Shown: positions 684-35,941, numbered from the stretch's first letter. The stretch: 64,000 nucleotides of DNA from Leptogorgia sarmentosa (GCA_964658305.1 OZ210885.1:10540001-10604000), one strand, 5' to 3'. The notes: generated by a model from the sequence alone, not told the origin. Numbers and translations are program-made.

Positions 684-1009
684 TCAACCTTCTGGTTGGA
701 GTTGTTTTGAATGCGAGGATAACTTATTAAGACAAAGGAAGCAGACCCGACCTCCTGCCAGGCCAACACAAACCATTCCATTTGAGCCACATGCTATGGC
801 TAAAACATTCCGGTCGAAATGAAATTCTTCAACACACTCTCCATTTGGTAGGTTCCACAGTTTCAGCGTCTTGTCTTCTTTCGAGCACGACAGAAGTAAT
901 TCACTTCCAGCCGCTAATGCCAACGCTCTGATACGTTCAGTATTTTGAATTGGAAATCTGTGGAGAACCTTTCCAGTTATGAAGTCCTTAATCGCCAAAG
1001 AACCATGAC
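684..1009 (-). CDS. Coding exon 16 (terminal): last WD40 repeats and stop
   Basis: EDKTLKLWNL, VCVGLAGGRVCFLCL; tttttag| acceptor; TGA at 686-684. Confidence 0.9.
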
Positions 1010-34000: not shown

Positions 34001-35941
34001 AGTGAGGACGACATATTGAATGCTTGGTCGACATAGAAGTAAAGTCGAATACCAGCTAGAATTAGGTATTGTAATTTGAATGCTGCGAGCAGAACTGGAA
34101 TCCCAATTGGCTGCATCTTTCGCAGTCGTCTCTTGGTTAGTTGAGCGGCCGTCATGCCATCAATCGCACTAAACGGTCCACGCACTTACGGTTTACAGGC
34201 GTACTCGATCAAAAGTAAACGGCTGCGTGGTTTCTAGGCGTATTCGGTCAAAACTAAAACGCCTTCTGGGCGTTATTGATCAGAACTAAAGGGCAGTGGA
34301 GCTTTCTAGACGAAATTCTCATTTCTGTCAACTACGTAGGTATAGGCAAAACAAAACGACTGCTTGGATATGCATTGATGGAGGTCGATATTGGGCTTTC
34401 CAGTGTCGTGAATTTAAAATTGTTTACCAATGGCGTGTACGTAGCCATACTCCATTCCCTTCGGAAAATGCGCCAGTACTGTTGGCGGGAACCGCAACTT
34501 CTCCTCGAGGACAAACGCTTGGCAAGCGTCTTCTTTCACATTTAAAGAACAATTCCAGCTATTTGGAATTTTGTATAATTTTAGCCGTTTATTGCATTTC
34601 AAGACGAAATACAATATATTTTTAAGAGTAAGCAGTGTTTAATGGTGCCTGAGTTAAGGATCACTTAAAAGGTATTTTTAGCGTGCTATCGCTAAATATT
34701 TTACGTGGTTACTGCATGTACATTTTAAATCAGCTAAAAAACATCCCTTTTTTATCACGCAATAACGATCACCGTGCGCACAATCAATTACAACTCCTAA
34801 ACACCTTTGGCAAAAAACAACCTTTACGGCTAACCTGTGGAAATTATCTTCATGATTTTTCATGTCCCGGAGGGAGACAACTTCCCGAAAAGGGGTCAAC
34901 TTTCATGTAACACCCGCGTAAAGCAAAATATGGTCTGCTTGTTGAACTGGTCTATATAATACCAATTTAGCGATTGTTAGGGGGAATATTAGATTTTTCT
35001 CAAACCTTTTTGTCTGCTTCAAACTGCCAGGTTTCACCACTTCGACGAAGTTCGTCAAGTAATTTTAAGTAACGACCATCAACAAAAACGTCCGAAACTA
35101 AGAACGAAAAAGTATATTATTAAATCAAGCAAATAATACAATAGCACAGGTACCGTATTTGCAGTAATAAGGAATTCCCAGGGTTAGTACTGTTCGGTAT
35201 GAGAAATTTCCGGTATGGGTATTCGGGAAAATTATACTGATATTATCACTTCACAATAACGAACAAGAGCAGGAAGGATAATCTCACTACCTAAACGATA
35301 AAACTAAACCTACGCTGGCCACGTGTGCTGTGATTTAAACTGATACCTTTATTCTTCCATTCCTGTAGATCATCACACGCCTGTTTTTCAAGATCAGGTG
35401 ATAACTTAATGTTTTTCATCAAGAATTCCATGTCTTGAATTGCATCATTCAACATGACATTGGTCCAATTGGAAAAATCACAATGAGCCCACTCATTTCT
35501 CACTTTTGACCTTACATTCTTTGCGTACACTGAGGCACCAGATGTTATGAATGGATCTGCTTCACAGATGATAGTCAGTAAAGCAGAAAGATCCATTGTA
35601 TCGTCAAAACCTGTAAACTTTGCCATGAAGGGTTGAACGAACAACTTTGCCAAAGACAGAGCATCTTTCACCGCGTAGTCATATGCAGGAGATTTGTGTA
35701 CATCATTACCGTTGATGTTTTTATATTGTAAAGACAACGTTGATGGTGGCAGCGTTTTAATTTGCTTTCCGAAAACTTGTTTGTCAATTTCAACAGGTGG
35801 TTTACATAAGTCTTGATACCAGCTCTTCAATTCTGCATCGACAACTTTCCTCAAGGTGGGAGTGACAACTTTGGTAAGGCAAATACCTGTTACAACCCAT
35901 CTGGATTCTTCATCTGTTGTGTAACTGGCACCGCTTGCCAT
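684..35941 (-). CDS. 16-exon gene for a HEPN (CXorf38/DUF4559-like)-coiled coil-NB-ARC-WD40 STAND protein, APAF-1-like architecture without CARD, 1712 aa
   Basis: join(complement): 35941-35347, 35097-35006, 33730-33541, 32660-32323, 31182-30546, 30307-29885, 24592-24347, 21643-21425, 18837-18628, 15983-15743, 14333-14095, 11984-11866, 9032-8624, 6130-5526, 3191-2942, 1009-684. All 15 introns are GT-AG with matching phases (1,0,1,0,1,1,1,1,1,2,1,0,1,0,1). Total 5139 nt with no internal stop. Motifs: RNEWAH, GMGGLGKT, LVVLDDVW, LLITTR, CKGLPLAL, VHD, QLLGRL, and many GH..WD-type repeats. Confidence 0.9.
1450..1602. repeat. ~150-bp imperfect foldback (hairpin) element
   Basis: tttatgcttttaatagaaatta at 1450 pairs with taatttctattaaaagcataaa ending at 1602; inner gcgggc/gcccgc and gatgcgcggg/cccgcgcatc also pair. 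Confidence 0.75.
1827..2213. repeat. Array of palindromic TTTCACATGTGAAA units with a 103-bp higher-order period
   Basis: aacttttcac(a/g)tgtgaaata recurs at 1827, 1930 and 2033; many further palindrome copies follow. Confidence 0.9.
2942..3191 (-). CDS. Coding exon 15: divergent WD40 repeats
   Basis: KLTKWNLND, NNSGNLVAIL; ttgacag| ... tag|gtaaat; phases fit both neighbours. Confidence 0.8.
4413..4519. repeat. AT-rich foldback with central GGGCTTCGCCC mini-hairpin
   Basis: aacaattagat...atctaattgtt arms; centre at 4461-4471. Confidence 0.75.
5526..6130 (-). CDS. Coding exon 14: WD40 repeats
   Basis: GHPDDSIVTAID, AHKDAISQV, FASGSIGGSVKLWNV; ctttcag| ... aag|gtatgt. Confidence 0.92.
6559..6855 (+). 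pseudogene. Degenerate THAP zinc-finger coding remnant, probably from a DNA transposon
   Basis: One frame reads MPCLVPKC...EWLRLLTRRDAY*KKS...SCFWHF, matching the THAP C2CH pattern, with one in-frame TGA at 6739-6741. Confidence 0.5.
7664..8173. mobile_element. Bipartite foldback element (A...A' followed by a long hairpin), Crypton-like non-autonomous type
   Basis: tattatatggcaa (7664) / ttgccatataata (7994); hairpin 8013-8173 centred on gccttcggc. Confidence 0.6.
8624..9032 (-). CDS. Coding exon 13: WD40 repeats
   Basis: VWNLSDG, FSSDGLQVIIGCKDYHVFIWDW; ttttcaag| ... cag|gtgggt. Confidence 0.9.
10855..11060. mobile_element. Penelope-like retroelement terminal remnant, inverted pair, with hammerhead-like motifs
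   Basis: acgtttcgagcaaaggcccttcgctggg ... cccgacgagggcccttttgctggaaacgtc. Related fragments near 10200-10275, 12190-12320, 38140-38215, 56275-56410 and 61170-61400. Confidence 0.5.
11866..11984 (-). CDS. Coding exon 12 (not in ORF track): WD40 segment GEWANLEWAKHVAVSADDQYVVSLSKDG...SSIK
   Basis: ttaatag| ... aag|gtgtag; phase 1 to 0; joins exon 13 to give SIKVWNL. Confidence 0.8.
13074..13560. mobile_element. Old MITE-like element with ~140-bp imperfect terminal inverted repeats
   Basis: 13074-13220 is the reverse complement of ~13405-13560 (e.g. tcaaatattccgtatctctaca / tgtagagatatggaatatttga). Confidence 0.6.
14095..14333 (-). CDS. Coding exon 11: WD40 repeats
   Basis: LTASWDGSIRVWNL, VSASTDGTFKVWNL; atttcag| ... 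cag|gtatag. Confidence 0.92.
14585..14696. repeat. (GATA)28 microsatellite
   Basis: Perfect GATA run of 112 bp. Confidence 0.98.
15743..15983 (-). CDS. Coding exon 10: WD40 repeats
   Basis: LVSGSHDGTIKIWDL, EGHTAYI; cgtttag| ... cag|gtgggt (phase 2). Confidence 0.92.
17671..18005. mobile_element. hAT-like MITE
   Basis: Degenerate TIRs cagtggcgtagga / tcctatgcccttg; perfect 8-bp TSD tttcagag. Confidence 0.8.
18628..18837 (-). CDS. Coding exon 9: WD40 repeats
   Basis: DKTIKLWK, LVGHTDYVTCV; gttgtag| ... cag|gtatgc. Confidence 0.9.
20517..21029. mobile_element. Degenerate hAT-like MITE
   Basis: cagtggcgtaa / ttacgccattg termini; TSD not preserved. Confidence 0.5.
21425..21643 (-). CDS. Coding exon 8: WD40 repeats
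   Basis: LQGHSRVVSCLAVSQSGTILASGSWDGSTILW; taaacag| ... atg|gtaagc. Confidence 0.92.
23293..23655. mobile_element. MITE with TAGGGACCTTAAGAT terminal inverted repeats (PIF/Harbinger-like termini)
   Basis: 15-bp perfect inverted repeat at 23293-23307 and 23641-23655; superfamily is tentative. Confidence 0.7.
24347..24592 (-). CDS. Coding exon 7: end of helical domain and first WD40 repeat
   Basis: Completes PQLL-GRLL; GLENGSITISDLDTG; ttttccag| ... cag|gtaggt. Confidence 0.88.
25435..26123. mobile_element. hAT-like MITE
   Basis: 14-bp perfect TIR cagggatgccggaa; 8-bp TSD acaggtag; subterminal acgggtgca repeats. Confidence 0.9.
26455..26557. repeat. AT-rich foldback with GC-rich centre (same class as 4413 and 8013)
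   Basis: gcatgatatcaagaattattcagacc ... ggtctgaataattcttgatatcatgc; adjacent gcgcttcgcgc hairpin at 26413-26423. Confidence 0.7.
27419..27934. mobile_element. PIF/Harbinger-like (Tourist-type) MITE
   Basis: Long TIRs gggggtgtttatatggaggcgag.../...ctcgcctccatataaacaccccc; flanked by TTA and TAA. Confidence 0.85.
28608..29437. mobile_element. hAT-like MITE
   Basis: 15-bp perfect TIR caagggcgtcaatcc; 8-bp TSD gatgcatc. Confidence 0.9.
29885..30307 (-). CDS. Coding exon 6: MHD-equivalent motif (VHD) and APAF-1-like helical domain
   Basis: YRVHDLLLDF, YYFKFLPYHI, LFFDLNWLQQK, PQLL; ttttcag| ... tag|gtaata. Confidence 0.92.
30546..31182 (-). CDS. Coding exon 5: NB-ARC Walker B, sensor I, GLPL and winged helix
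   Basis: CLVVLDDVW, LLITTR, CKGLPLAL, FGIFPED; attgcag| ... aag|gtacac. Confidence 0.93.
32323..32660 (-). CDS. Coding exon 4: NB-ARC N-terminus with Walker A
   Basis: LPRDMVRRPSEV...VVGIRGMGGLGKT (32497-32520); atcttag| ... aca|gtatgt. Confidence 0.92.
33541..33730 (-). CDS. Coding exon 3: coiled-coil segment MDEVVEELDNLKS...YAEKP
   Basis: E/K/L-rich heptad-like pattern; ctttccag| ... cag|gtattg; phase 0 to 1. Confidence 0.82.
35006..35097 (-). CDS. Coding exon 2 (not in ORF track): helical linker VSDVFVDGRYLKLLDELRRSGETWQFEADKK
   Basis: ttttcgttcttag| ... aag|gtttga. Open frame that converts phase 1 to phase 0, as needed to join exons 1 and 3. Confidence 0.75.
35347..35941 (-). CDS. Coding exon 1: HEPN-like domain of CXorf38/DUF4559 type
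   Basis: MASGASY...EESRWVVTGICL...LAKLF...DLSALLTII...VRNEWAHC. Acceptor tttgtag at 35953-35954, 11 nt before the ATG, implies an upstream UTR exon. Donor aag|gtatca, phase 1. Confidence 0.88.

What the first reader, a model, noticed from the sequence alone, without database searches (positions are those of the whole stretch)
684..35941. Intact animal STAND receptor with a putative ribonuclease effector: HEPN-coiled coil-NB-ARC-WD40
Seen: a phase-consistent 16-exon frame of 1712 aa joins an N-terminal RxxxxH domain to a full NB-ARC (GMGGLGKT, LDDVW, ITTR, GLPLA, VHD), an APAF-1-like helical domain and a long WD40 array. No CARD, death or TIR domain is present. Established: APAF-1/CED-4 use NB-ARC oligomerisation to cluster an N-terminal effector; HEPN RNases are active as dimers via RxxxxH; bacterial Avs-type STAND proteins couple a repeat sensor to a nuclease. 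Inference: ligand binding to the WD40s could assemble a caspase-independent, apoptosome-like RNase that halts translation or degrades foreign RNA. HEPN-NACHT-LRR proteins are reported in anthozoans, but I do not know of a characterised HEPN-NB-ARC-WD40 form.
Basis: partly seen in the sequence, partly recalled or inferred. Interest (0 to 1): 0.9.

Follow-up and report, generated by a model that had tools for sequence, protein, structure and literature searches.

The report
Coral apoptosome-type receptor with RNase head
An intact 16-exon gene, likely from a soft coral, encodes an APAF-1-type cell-death receptor that carries a predicted RNA-cutting domain where its closest relatives carry caspase-recruiting death domains, so it would likely destroy RNA directly when triggered; similar RNase-headed receptors are already known in corals, but this body type was not found in print.

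Summary
Observation confirmed. Sixteen GT-AG-bounded coding exons on the minus strand (35941-684) give an open 1710-aa frame (1712 with an alternative acceptor). It is colinear with a 1709-aa single-ORF homologue (58% identical), and one public run shows spliced pieces at 4 of 15 introns. The head (aa 1-198) is a CXorf38/Swt1-type HEPN domain: RNxWAH arginine in 153/161 and histidine in 155/163 relatives; the fold match alone is modest. The body folds like APAF-1. The seam lies at phase-1 intron 3, so this is a traceable effector swap. The idea itself is not new. HEPN-NACHT-WD40 makes up 112 of 180 WD40-ended STAND proteins in a five-coral survey, HEPN-NB-ARC-TPR is listed there, and an RNase-effector role for cnidarian CXorf38-STAND fusions was proposed in 2013. 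HEPN-NB-ARC-WD40 was 0 of 180. The scan earlier noted a protist HEPN-NB-ARC-TPR gene on other DNA. RNase activity, oligomerisation and ligand are untested. Verdict: new variant of a known kind, interest 0.5.

The parts
35347..35941 (-). Coding exon 1, aa 1-198: CXorf38/Swt1-type HEPN domain (predicted RNase), D117 and R148-N149-x-W-A-H153
35483..35500 (-). RNEWAH codons (R-phi-xxx-H motif)
35006..35097 (-). Coding exon 2, aa 199-229: start of predicted coiled coil
33541..33730 (-). Coding exon 3, aa 230-292: predicted coiled coil and linker; last exon of the HEPN cassette
32661..33540 (-). Intron 3 (phase 1, 880 nt): seam between the HEPN cassette and the NB-ARC-WD40 body
32323..32660 (-). Coding exon 4, aa 293-405: NB-ARC start, Walker A GMGGLGKT (aa 340)
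30546..31182 (-). Coding exon 5, aa 406-617: Walker B LDDVW, sensor ITTR, GLPLA, winged helix start
29885..30307 (-). Coding exon 6, aa 618-758: VHD (MHD-type) motif, APAF-1 helical domain
24347..24592 (-). Coding exon 7, aa 759-840: linker and first WD40 blades
21425..21643 (-). Coding exon 8: WD40
18628..18837 (-). Coding exon 9: WD40
15743..15977 (-). Coding exon 10: WD40 (alternative acceptor 15983 adds 2 aa)
14095..14333 (-). Coding exon 11: WD40
11866..11984 (-). Coding exon 12: WD40 (short; weakest tblastn support, E 0.97, sites fixed by junction scoring)
8624..9032 (-). Coding exon 13: WD40
5526..6130 (-). Coding exon 14: WD40
2942..3191 (-). Coding exon 15: divergent propeller blades
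684..1009 (-). Coding exon 16: last WD40 blades and stop codon

Best explanation
The gene encodes a HEPN-coiled coil-NB-ARC-WD40 protein, likely an intracellular immune receptor of a soft coral, which likely arose when an exon cassette for a predicted RNase replaced the death-effector domains of an APAF-1-like receptor, and which would cut RNA once a ligand makes it oligomerise. Shown: intact frame; intact nucleotide-switch motifs; conserved R-N-x-x-x-H; two parent families for head and body; a seam at intron 3. Inferred from APAF-1 and bacterial Avs proteins: at rest the WD40 propellers and the VHD histidine hold the ADP-bound closed monomer; an unknown ligand bound to the propellers allows ADP/ATP exchange and ring formation. 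Inferred from HEPN enzymology, which needs a two-fold dimer: the roughly 80-residue helix behind the head, joined to the NB-ARC by a flexible linker, pairs neighbouring heads above the ring, so that two RNEWAH motifs form one active site. The outcome would be caspase-independent destruction of host RNA (translation arrest, cell death) or of viral RNA; which of the two is open.
For: Head: R148 in 153/161, N149 151/161, H153 155/163, D117 163/177 non-gap rows of 187 homologous segments. Of 95 aligned members, 21 hit DUF4559 and 20 hit HEPN_Swt1 at E<=0.01; 2 of 25 short members pass the DUF4559 cut-off, one of them over profile positions 5-204. Atlas neighbours of homologue P0002 score 0.94-0.97, with HEPN_DZIP3 or DUF4559 on 11-38% of members. 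Model pLDDT 96.8; best second-look match is the yeast Swt1 C-terminal domain, Z 6.9, rmsd 3.2, 114 aligned. The same head sits on other switch NTPases in 25 of 30 long relatives scanned: nSTAND3 14, NACHT 3, NPHP3_N 1, NB-ARC 3, AAA_16 1, Roc-COR 2, AIG1 1, the pattern of a mobile effector. Body: model of P0001 1-800 best matches ADP-bound APAF-1 (1z6t, E 2e-19); Walker A/B, sensor, GLPLA and xHD intact in the window model and 11 of 11 clade members checked; continuous helix 208-286, then a disordered linker. Swap: of 73 NB-ARC relatives scanned only P0001 and P0016 carry the HEPN; 5 of 5 N-termini scanned from close relatives are DED (4) or Death (1); the three HEPN carriers form a clade (99/97; 100/100) nested among death-fold carriers (AU p 0.004 against the five death-fold rows as a clade without them); identity changes parent family between aa 281 and 320. 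Precedent: PMC3710099, PMC13581612, bioRxiv 10.64898/2026.05.28.728550.
Against: No activity, ligand or oligomer was tested. The window's own domain has no Pfam hit better than E 0.05. Foldseek found no match at E<=0.001, and in the wide search unrelated helical bundles scored as high as or higher than Swt1 (Z 8.2, 8.0), so the fold alone does not prove HEPN. The closest structural match, Swt1, is itself described as possibly inactive. No record spans exon 1 to the NB-ARC; the decisive exon 3-4 junction rests on a 16-letter loose end from a variant allele. HEPN trees do not keep the three carriers together (AU p 0.008, groups chosen after seeing trees), so 'one swap' is too simple. Only three proteins with this architecture were found.
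Confidence: 0.57

Rival explanations
1. The HEPN head is a constitutive or separately regulated RNA-binding or RNA-trimming module, a sensor or bait, and the receptor signals through partners rather than by cutting RNA on oligomerisation.
For: Reviews allow HEPN-NLRs to be RNA sensors or RNases (PMC8662601). The nearest solved fold, Swt1 CTD, is thought to be a non-catalytic binder. Stand-alone members of about 200 aa exist in the family.
Against: R, N, H and the upstream D are kept in 92-95% of relatives, unlike inactive Swt1. The head occupies exactly the effector position of the DED/Death domains it replaced, and the WD40 sensor is retained.
Confidence: 0.2
2. The protein is one subunit of a mixed ring or receptor pair with DED-type paralogues: it modulates or decoys caspase-8-type signalling, and any RNase activity is secondary.
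For: The body is 52% identical over about 1400 aa to DED-bearing Dendronephthya proteins, so co-assembly is plausible. Module trees are incongruent, as in a recombining gene cluster.
Against: No DED-type paralogue was seen in this window, and the genome is not held. The catalytic motif is intact, which a pure decoy would not need.
Confidence: 0.13
3. The head is not a HEPN nuclease but an unrelated helical adaptor with a chance RxxxxH.
For: No significant Pfam or Foldseek hit for the window's own domain; VIA Z of 6.9 lies in the range of common helical bundles.
Against: Relatives match DUF4559 up to E 4e-9 and HEPN_Swt1 up to E 1e-6. The family profile aligns its RNxWAH with the RN-xxx-H motif of a bona fide DZIP3 HEPN (weak, 4.9 bits). 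Several solved HEPN proteins recur among the structural matches (4pqz, 4rgp, 7ae2, 5yep).
Confidence: 0.07
4. The gene model is a chimera of two neighbouring genes (a HEPN-coiled-coil gene and a headless NB-ARC-WD40 gene).
For: Head and body have different parents and different nearest neighbours; headless predictions exist among relatives (P0190, P0192, P0193).
Against: P0001 (1709 aa on a 5604-nt contig) and P0016 (1205 aa on a 4084-nt contig) hold the same fusion as uninterrupted ORFs. Intron 3 is a phase-consistent 880-nt GT-AG intron. Run X4 has a loose end that matches the exon 3-4 junction.
Confidence: 0.03

Closest known systems
Anthozoan DED/Death-NB-ARC-WD40 APAF-1-like proteins (Nematostella XP_032223290; Dendronephthya XP_028408746, XP_028393314; Xenia XP_046844012; coral OG0002938; PMC2246300)
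   Same: Same NB-ARC-helical-WD40 body from aa 295 to the end (52% to Dendronephthya, 45% to Xenia, 29% to Nematostella); same clade.
   Different: Their N-termini are DED or Death adaptors; here an enzyme-type domain plus coiled coil stands in that place. PMC2246300 passages list only interaction domains (CARD pairs, Death, DED, TIR) as replacements.
Coral DZIP3-like HEPN-NACHT-WD40 (mainly OG0000097) and HEPN-NB-ARC-TPR (OG0000193), PMC10236652
   Same: HEPN head, STAND switch, repeat sensor; 112 of 180 WD40-ended proteins in Additional file 17 are HEPN-NACHT-WD40.
   Different: Different NTPase (NACHT) or different sensor (TPR). All 5 NB-ARC-WD40 rows there have a DEATH-class head; 0 of 180 are HEPN-NB-ARC-WD40. 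The HEPN here is of the CXorf38-like subfamily, which Pfam HEPN_DZIP3 does not detect. The survey covers five stony corals, no octocoral.
CXorf38-family HEPN fused to NACHT/DEATH in cnidarians and cephalochordates (PMC3710099)
   Same: Nearest HEPN family (DUF4559 hits; that DUF4559 is the CXorf38 family is recalled, not from a call); same proposed logic of STAND-linked RNA degradation.
   Different: NB-ARC-WD40 body; no CxxC in the head, whereas CXorf38 is described with an inserted Zn ribbon.
Octocoral HEPN-coiled coil-STAND-TPR-beta helix-MYND family (e.g. Dendronephthya LOC114528978)
   Same: Donor of the head: 58-65% identity over exon 1.
   Different: Only 17-28% over exons 4-6 in the full-length members; TPR/beta-helix sensor instead of WD40. 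Uncharacterised database predictions.
Human APAF-1 apoptosome
   Same: Best solved match for the NB-ARC-WHD-helical region by sequence and fold.
   Different: 24% identity; no CARD; repeat region about 950 aa, likely three propellers rather than two (inferred from length; two in APAF-1 is recalled); cytochrome c sensing not tested.
Bacterial Avs STAND receptors
   Same: Sensor-gated ADP/ATP exchange and oligomerisation that assembles an N-terminal nuclease (PMC13581612 passages): the working analogy.
   Different: Prokaryotic, mostly TPR sensors, DNase or other effectors; no direct descent shown here.

Membership tests
HEPN superfamily | R-phi-xxx-H motif (phi = N, D, H), conserved | tested here: met
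   RNEWAH; R 153/161, N 151/161, H 155/163; invariant in 34 of 34 closest
HEPN superfamily | Profile similarity to a known HEPN family | tested here: met
   Through relatives only: DUF4559 21/95, HEPN_Swt1 20/95 at E<=0.01; 2 of 25 above the DUF4559 cut-off; window domain itself HEPN_Swt1 E 0.052
HEPN superfamily | All-helical HEPN fold | tested here: inconclusive
   All-helical model, pLDDT 96.8; Swt1 CTD Z 6.9, rmsd 3.2, 114 aligned; Csm6 Z 5.9-6.1; unrelated bundles up to Z 8.2
HEPN superfamily | Dimer with a composite active site; metal-independent RNase activity | not testable with these tools
   Needs biochemistry
DZIP3/hRUL138-like HEPN (PF18738) | Match to PF18738 | tested here: not met
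   No hit for the window domain; 2 of 25 relatives at E 0.02-0.03 only; P0009 carries this domain and a separate true PF18738 domain
CXorf38-like HEPN (DUF4559) | Match to PF15112 over the HEPN region | tested here: inconclusive
   9 of 25 relatives at E<0.05, 2 above cut-off; window domain has no hit
CXorf38-like HEPN (DUF4559) | Zn ribbon inserted in the HEPN | tested here: not met
   No CxxC in aa 1-198; so a related subfamily, not CXorf38 itself
NB-ARC (AP-ATPase) STAND receptors | Walker A, Walker B, sensor arginine, GxP, MHD-type motif | tested here: met
   GMGGLGKT 340, LDDVW 414, ITTR 437, GLPLA 498, VHD 629; PF00931 E 2e-23
NB-ARC (AP-ATPase) STAND receptors | Effector-switch-repeat sensor layout | tested here: met
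NB-ARC (AP-ATPase) STAND receptors | Ligand-induced nucleotide exchange and oligomerisation | not testable with these tools
   Inferred from family
APAF-1 proper | N-terminal CARD that recruits caspase-9 | tested here: not met
   No CARD; in-frame stop two codons upstream of the ATG
APAF-1 proper | NB-ARC, WHD, APAF-1 helical domain, WD40 | tested here: met
   PF17908 E 8e-12; Foldseek best hit 1z6t for homologue P0001 1-800
APAF-1 proper | Orthology to vertebrate APAF-1 | not tested
   No canonical APAF-1 sequence was among the fetched proteins, so none is in the trees
APAF-1 proper | Cytochrome c sensing | not testable with these tools
   No data
Anthozoan DED/Death-NB-ARC-WD40 clade | Body groups within the clade | tested here: met
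   100/100 for the 16-row anthozoan-type clade; nested with Dendronephthya DED members 97/94 and 98/98
Anthozoan DED/Death-NB-ARC-WD40 clade | Death-fold head | tested here: not met
   Replaced by HEPN-coiled coil

The most novel reading that the evidence does not exclude
Soft corals rebuilt an apoptosome-type receptor into a self-contained executioner: by exon shuffling at one phase-1 intron a caspase-recruiting DED pair was swapped for a HEPN RNase cassette, giving an animal 'RNase apoptosome' that kills without caspases, the counterpart of bacterial Avs receptors; heads are still being exchanged among paralogues from a large, Pfam-invisible HEPN pool.
Probability: 0.45. Interest if true: 0.75.

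Novelty: new variant of a known kind. Interest (0 to 1): 0.5.

Why it matters
HEPN-headed STAND receptors are among the commonest intracellular receptor types in corals and bivalves, yet my searches found no biochemical test of one. This gene offers a clean comparison: a DED-headed and a HEPN-headed receptor on the same APAF-1-type body (52% identical), the best-understood animal STAND scaffold, with ready activating and inactivating controls. It makes testable whether animals use STAND-gated RNases for caspase-independent death or antiviral defence, as proposed in 2013. It also shows that a HEPN subfamily of at least 374 clusters at 50% identity is largely missed by Pfam, so surveys undercount enzyme-headed receptors.

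Tried and rejected
No whole genome is held, so paralogues and synteny in this organism are unchecked. No RNA holder listed; runs X1-X3 cover introns and showed none of the modelled splice joints among the rows displayed. Homodimer prediction for the HEPN domain gave no answer (score 0.00, alignment not used): no evidence either way. Foldseek on the HEPN model: nothing at E<=0.001. Profile of A2 against solved sequences: only weak coiled-coil hits (best E 0.034). The full-length protein could not be folded (size limit), so the propeller number is open; a home-made repeat profile listed 13 stretches, 9 at E<1e-4. Atlas was run on homologue P0002, not on the window sequence. No Rfam match in the window. 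No Pfam hit in 16 of 16 other ORFs scanned (11 upstream, 5 intronic), and no tblastn hit of fetched proteins in 36000-64000. Phrase search in the supplement failed; rows were then read term by term. Rejected: DZIP3-type HEPN (PF18738 not met); APAF-1 proper (no CARD); pseudogene (no stop or frameshift in 5133 nt); processed retrocopy as the source of the X4 joints (the intron-covering run X2 shows neither joint; not excluded outright). Earlier-scan look-ups by sequence and by place found nothing.

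
Full report
1. The gene. A search with exon 1 returned 33 longer proteins; the best, P0001, is 1709 aa on a 5604-nt contig, and P0016 is 1205 aa on a 4084-nt contig. ORFs that nearly fill their contigs are likely transcripts (inference; the molecule type is not given). tblastn of P0001 hits 16 colinear segments from 35941 to 708. Scoring donor/acceptor pairs (junction 1-2 set by hand) gives 16 coding exons, 15 of 15 GT-AG introns, 5133 nt and 1710 aa with no internal stop, 58% identical to P0001 over 1674 aligned positions. 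An in-frame TGA two codons before the ATG and an acceptor-like AG at 35954-35953 suggest a non-coding upstream exon and exclude a further N-terminal domain on this exon. The nearest named homologues are Dendronephthya, Paramuricea and Xenia, so the source is likely an octocoral (inference).

2. Splicing. Run X4 (kind not on record) has a contig that skips intron 5 (238 nt, 177 letters on the short side; listed one base shifted) and intron 4 (1140 nt, CT..AC on the plus strand, 30 letters on the short side, one under the tool's bar). Run X2 shows neither (15 of 43 joints displayed). A loose end at 35099 is the last 15 letters of exon 1, unique in the window. A loose end at 32656 matches the end of exon 3 in 10 of 12 letters, against 3 of 12 for the intron; 8 of about 64,000 positions match as well. 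It reads EKKVAYGLR, a variant close to P0016. So 4 of 15 introns have some support, two of them from short ends. No record spans head to NB-ARC.

3. The head. Exon 1 has no Pfam hit better than HEPN_Swt1 at E 0.052, but it belongs to a large family: 374 representatives at E<=0.001. Across 187 segments from 183 fetched proteins, R148 is kept in 153/161, N149 in 151/161, W151 in 154/164, H153 in 155/163 and D117 in 163/177 non-gap rows. Of 95 aligned members, 21 hit DUF4559 and 20 HEPN_Swt1. Of 25 short members, 9 hit DUF4559 (2 above cut-off), 8 HEPN_Swt1 (none above) and 2 HEPN_DZIP3 weakly. Atlas neighbours of homologue P0002 agree. The AlphaFold model is all-helical (pLDDT 96.8), with RN at the end of helix 136-152. 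Foldseek finds nothing significant. VIA places the Swt1 C-terminal domain at Z 6.9 (rmsd 3.2, 114 aligned), fifth in the wide search behind unrelated bundles and first in the second look, with Csm6 and HEPN toxins further down. I read this as a HEPN of a CXorf38-related subfamily without the Zn ribbon (no CxxC), at about 0.9 confidence. In 25 of 30 long relatives scanned the domain is joined to a switch NTPase or GTPase, and none of the 30 has WD40 at E<=1e-8.

4. The body. Walker A, Walker B, sensor arginine, GLPLA and VHD are intact. APAF-1 is the best solved match by sequence for exon 5 (E 2e-15) and by fold for P0001 1-800 (1z6t, E 2e-19, 24% identity). That model shows a continuous helix 208-286 and a disordered linker 286-300 between head and NB-ARC. 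The repeat region spans about 950 aa.

5. An effector swap. Searching with the NB-ARC region gave 14 close hits (E<=1e-94). Among 73 hits scanned with a family profile only P0001 and P0016 carry the HEPN. Five N-termini scanned are DED (two Dendronephthya, one unnamed, Nematostella) or Death (Xenia); four further close hits are predicted without a head and one is truncated. In a 25-row tree the three HEPN carriers form a clade (99/97) nested with the Dendronephthya DED proteins (97/94), with a tandem-DED protein and Nematostella outside. A 12-row tree on aa 295-1140 agrees (100/100), and holding the five death-fold rows of the inner clade together without the HEPN carriers is rejected (AU p 0.004). 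Exon 1 is 58-65% identical to octocoral HEPN-STAND-TPR proteins, whose exon 4-6 regions are only 17-28% identical; for the DED/Death-type proteins tested the pattern is reversed (exon 1 0-12%, exon 4 50-68%). Local alignments to the DED type mostly start at aa 292-295, and phase-1 intron 3 falls at aa 293. The simplest history is exon shuffling of a three-exon HEPN-coiled-coil cassette onto a DED-type body (inference; intron positions in the parent genes were not seen). In Dendronephthya a DED-type gene and HEPN genes share a contig length and have neighbouring accession numbers, which suggests linkage (not checked in DNA). Against a single clean event: in HEPN trees the window groups with P0001, and P0016 with another HEPN (AU p 0.0005 and 0.008), while in the NB-ARC tree the window groups with P0016 (AU p 4e-5 against window+P0001) and in the first WD region P0001 groups with P0016. 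These groups were chosen after seeing trees, so the p values are indicative. Continued exchange of modules, or two captures, would explain this.

6. Mechanism. Shown: anatomy, motifs, parentage. From established knowledge: HEPN catalysis needs a dimer of R-phi-xxx-H motifs (bioRxiv 10.64898/2026.05.28.728550, passages; its supplements are closed); a STAND receptor can be held by ADP and assemble an N-terminal nuclease on ligand binding (PMC13581612, passages). Inferred: ligand binding to the propellers opens the switch, a ring forms, and the long helix pairs heads to complete the RNase site. Target RNA and ligand are unknown. Confidence 0.57; rivals are a non-catalytic or sensor role (0.2), a mixed ring with DED paralogues (0.13), not a HEPN (0.07), and a chimeric model (0.03).

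7. What is known. PMC3710099 (passages) reports CXorf38-family HEPN fused to NACHT and DEATH in cnidarians and proposes degradation of cellular or viral RNA. PMC8260672 (passages) counts 83 HEPN-NACHT proteins in D. gigantea. PMC10236652 (passages; Additional file 17, all 180 WD40 rows and the first 18 of 323 HEPN rows) lists HEPN-NACHT-WD40 in 112 of 180 rows by my count, lists HEPN-NB-ARC-TPR, and has 5 NB-ARC-WD40 rows, all DEATH-headed; none is HEPN-NB-ARC-WD40. Its other supplements and figures were not read. PMC2246300 (passages) describes CARD, Death, DED and TIR heads on APAF-1 homologues; PMC4083563 (passages) notes shuffling of N-terminal effectors in Acropora. PMC9646362, PMC8662601 and PMC8195603 (passages) treat HEPN-STAND function as predicted. 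Nine searches found no description of HEPN on an APAF-1-type NB-ARC-WD40 body and no biochemical test of an animal HEPN-STAND; subscription papers are not covered, and 'noneDetected' heads in surveys could hide this subfamily.

8. Verdict. A real, intact and probably expressed gene. It works like a STAND-gated nuclease receptor (inferred). It is a member of the anthozoan APAF-1-like NB-ARC-WD40 clade by its body, but it is not APAF-1. New variant of a known kind; interest 0.5.

Noticed in passing
window 39630-53600: Nested large repeats upstream of the gene: a 3.1-kb inverted pair (39630-42726 / 50495-53600, 95%), a 2.2-kb direct pair (42167-44374 / 44514-46725, 92%) and smaller inverted pieces; no Pfam hit in the ORFs scanned. 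Possibly a non-autonomous fold-back element.
   Followed up: partly
window 33541-33730 and 35687: Runs X4 and X2 carry a divergent allele or paralogue of exon 3 (10 displayed variants change 7 of 63 residues, no stop), and all four runs show a 3-nt in-frame insertion in exon 1.
   Followed up: partly
P0009 (Dendronephthya LOC114516467): Two different HEPN classes in tandem: this subfamily at aa 1-196 and a true PF18738 domain at 263-407; could form an intramolecular HEPN pair.
   Followed up: partly
P0154, P0050, P0111, P0093: The same HEPN subfamily is fused to a kinase plus Ribonuc_2-5A (RNase L/IRE1-like) protein, to the C-terminus of Roc-COR proteins and to an AIG1 GTPase.
   Followed up: no
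P0196-P0216: After the anthozoan clade, the best NB-ARC matches are metagenomic proteins, nearly all NB-ARC-WD40 (25-31% identity, E down to 1e-50; one Actinostola protein lies among them); no vertebrate APAF-1 was among the 120 listed. The search is word-limited.
   Followed up: no
Dendronephthya records: DED-type APAF-1-like genes and HEPN-family genes share contig lengths on two scaffolds (1,230,288 and 7,798,999), hinting at clusters where the swap could occur.
   Followed up: no
window 1827-2192 and 14584-14696: Intronic minisatellite built on a CACATGTG palindrome, and an (AGAT)28 microsatellite.
   Followed up: no
window 35952-35990: Acceptor-like site 11 nt before the ATG; the upstream non-coding exon and promoter were not located.
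   Followed up: no
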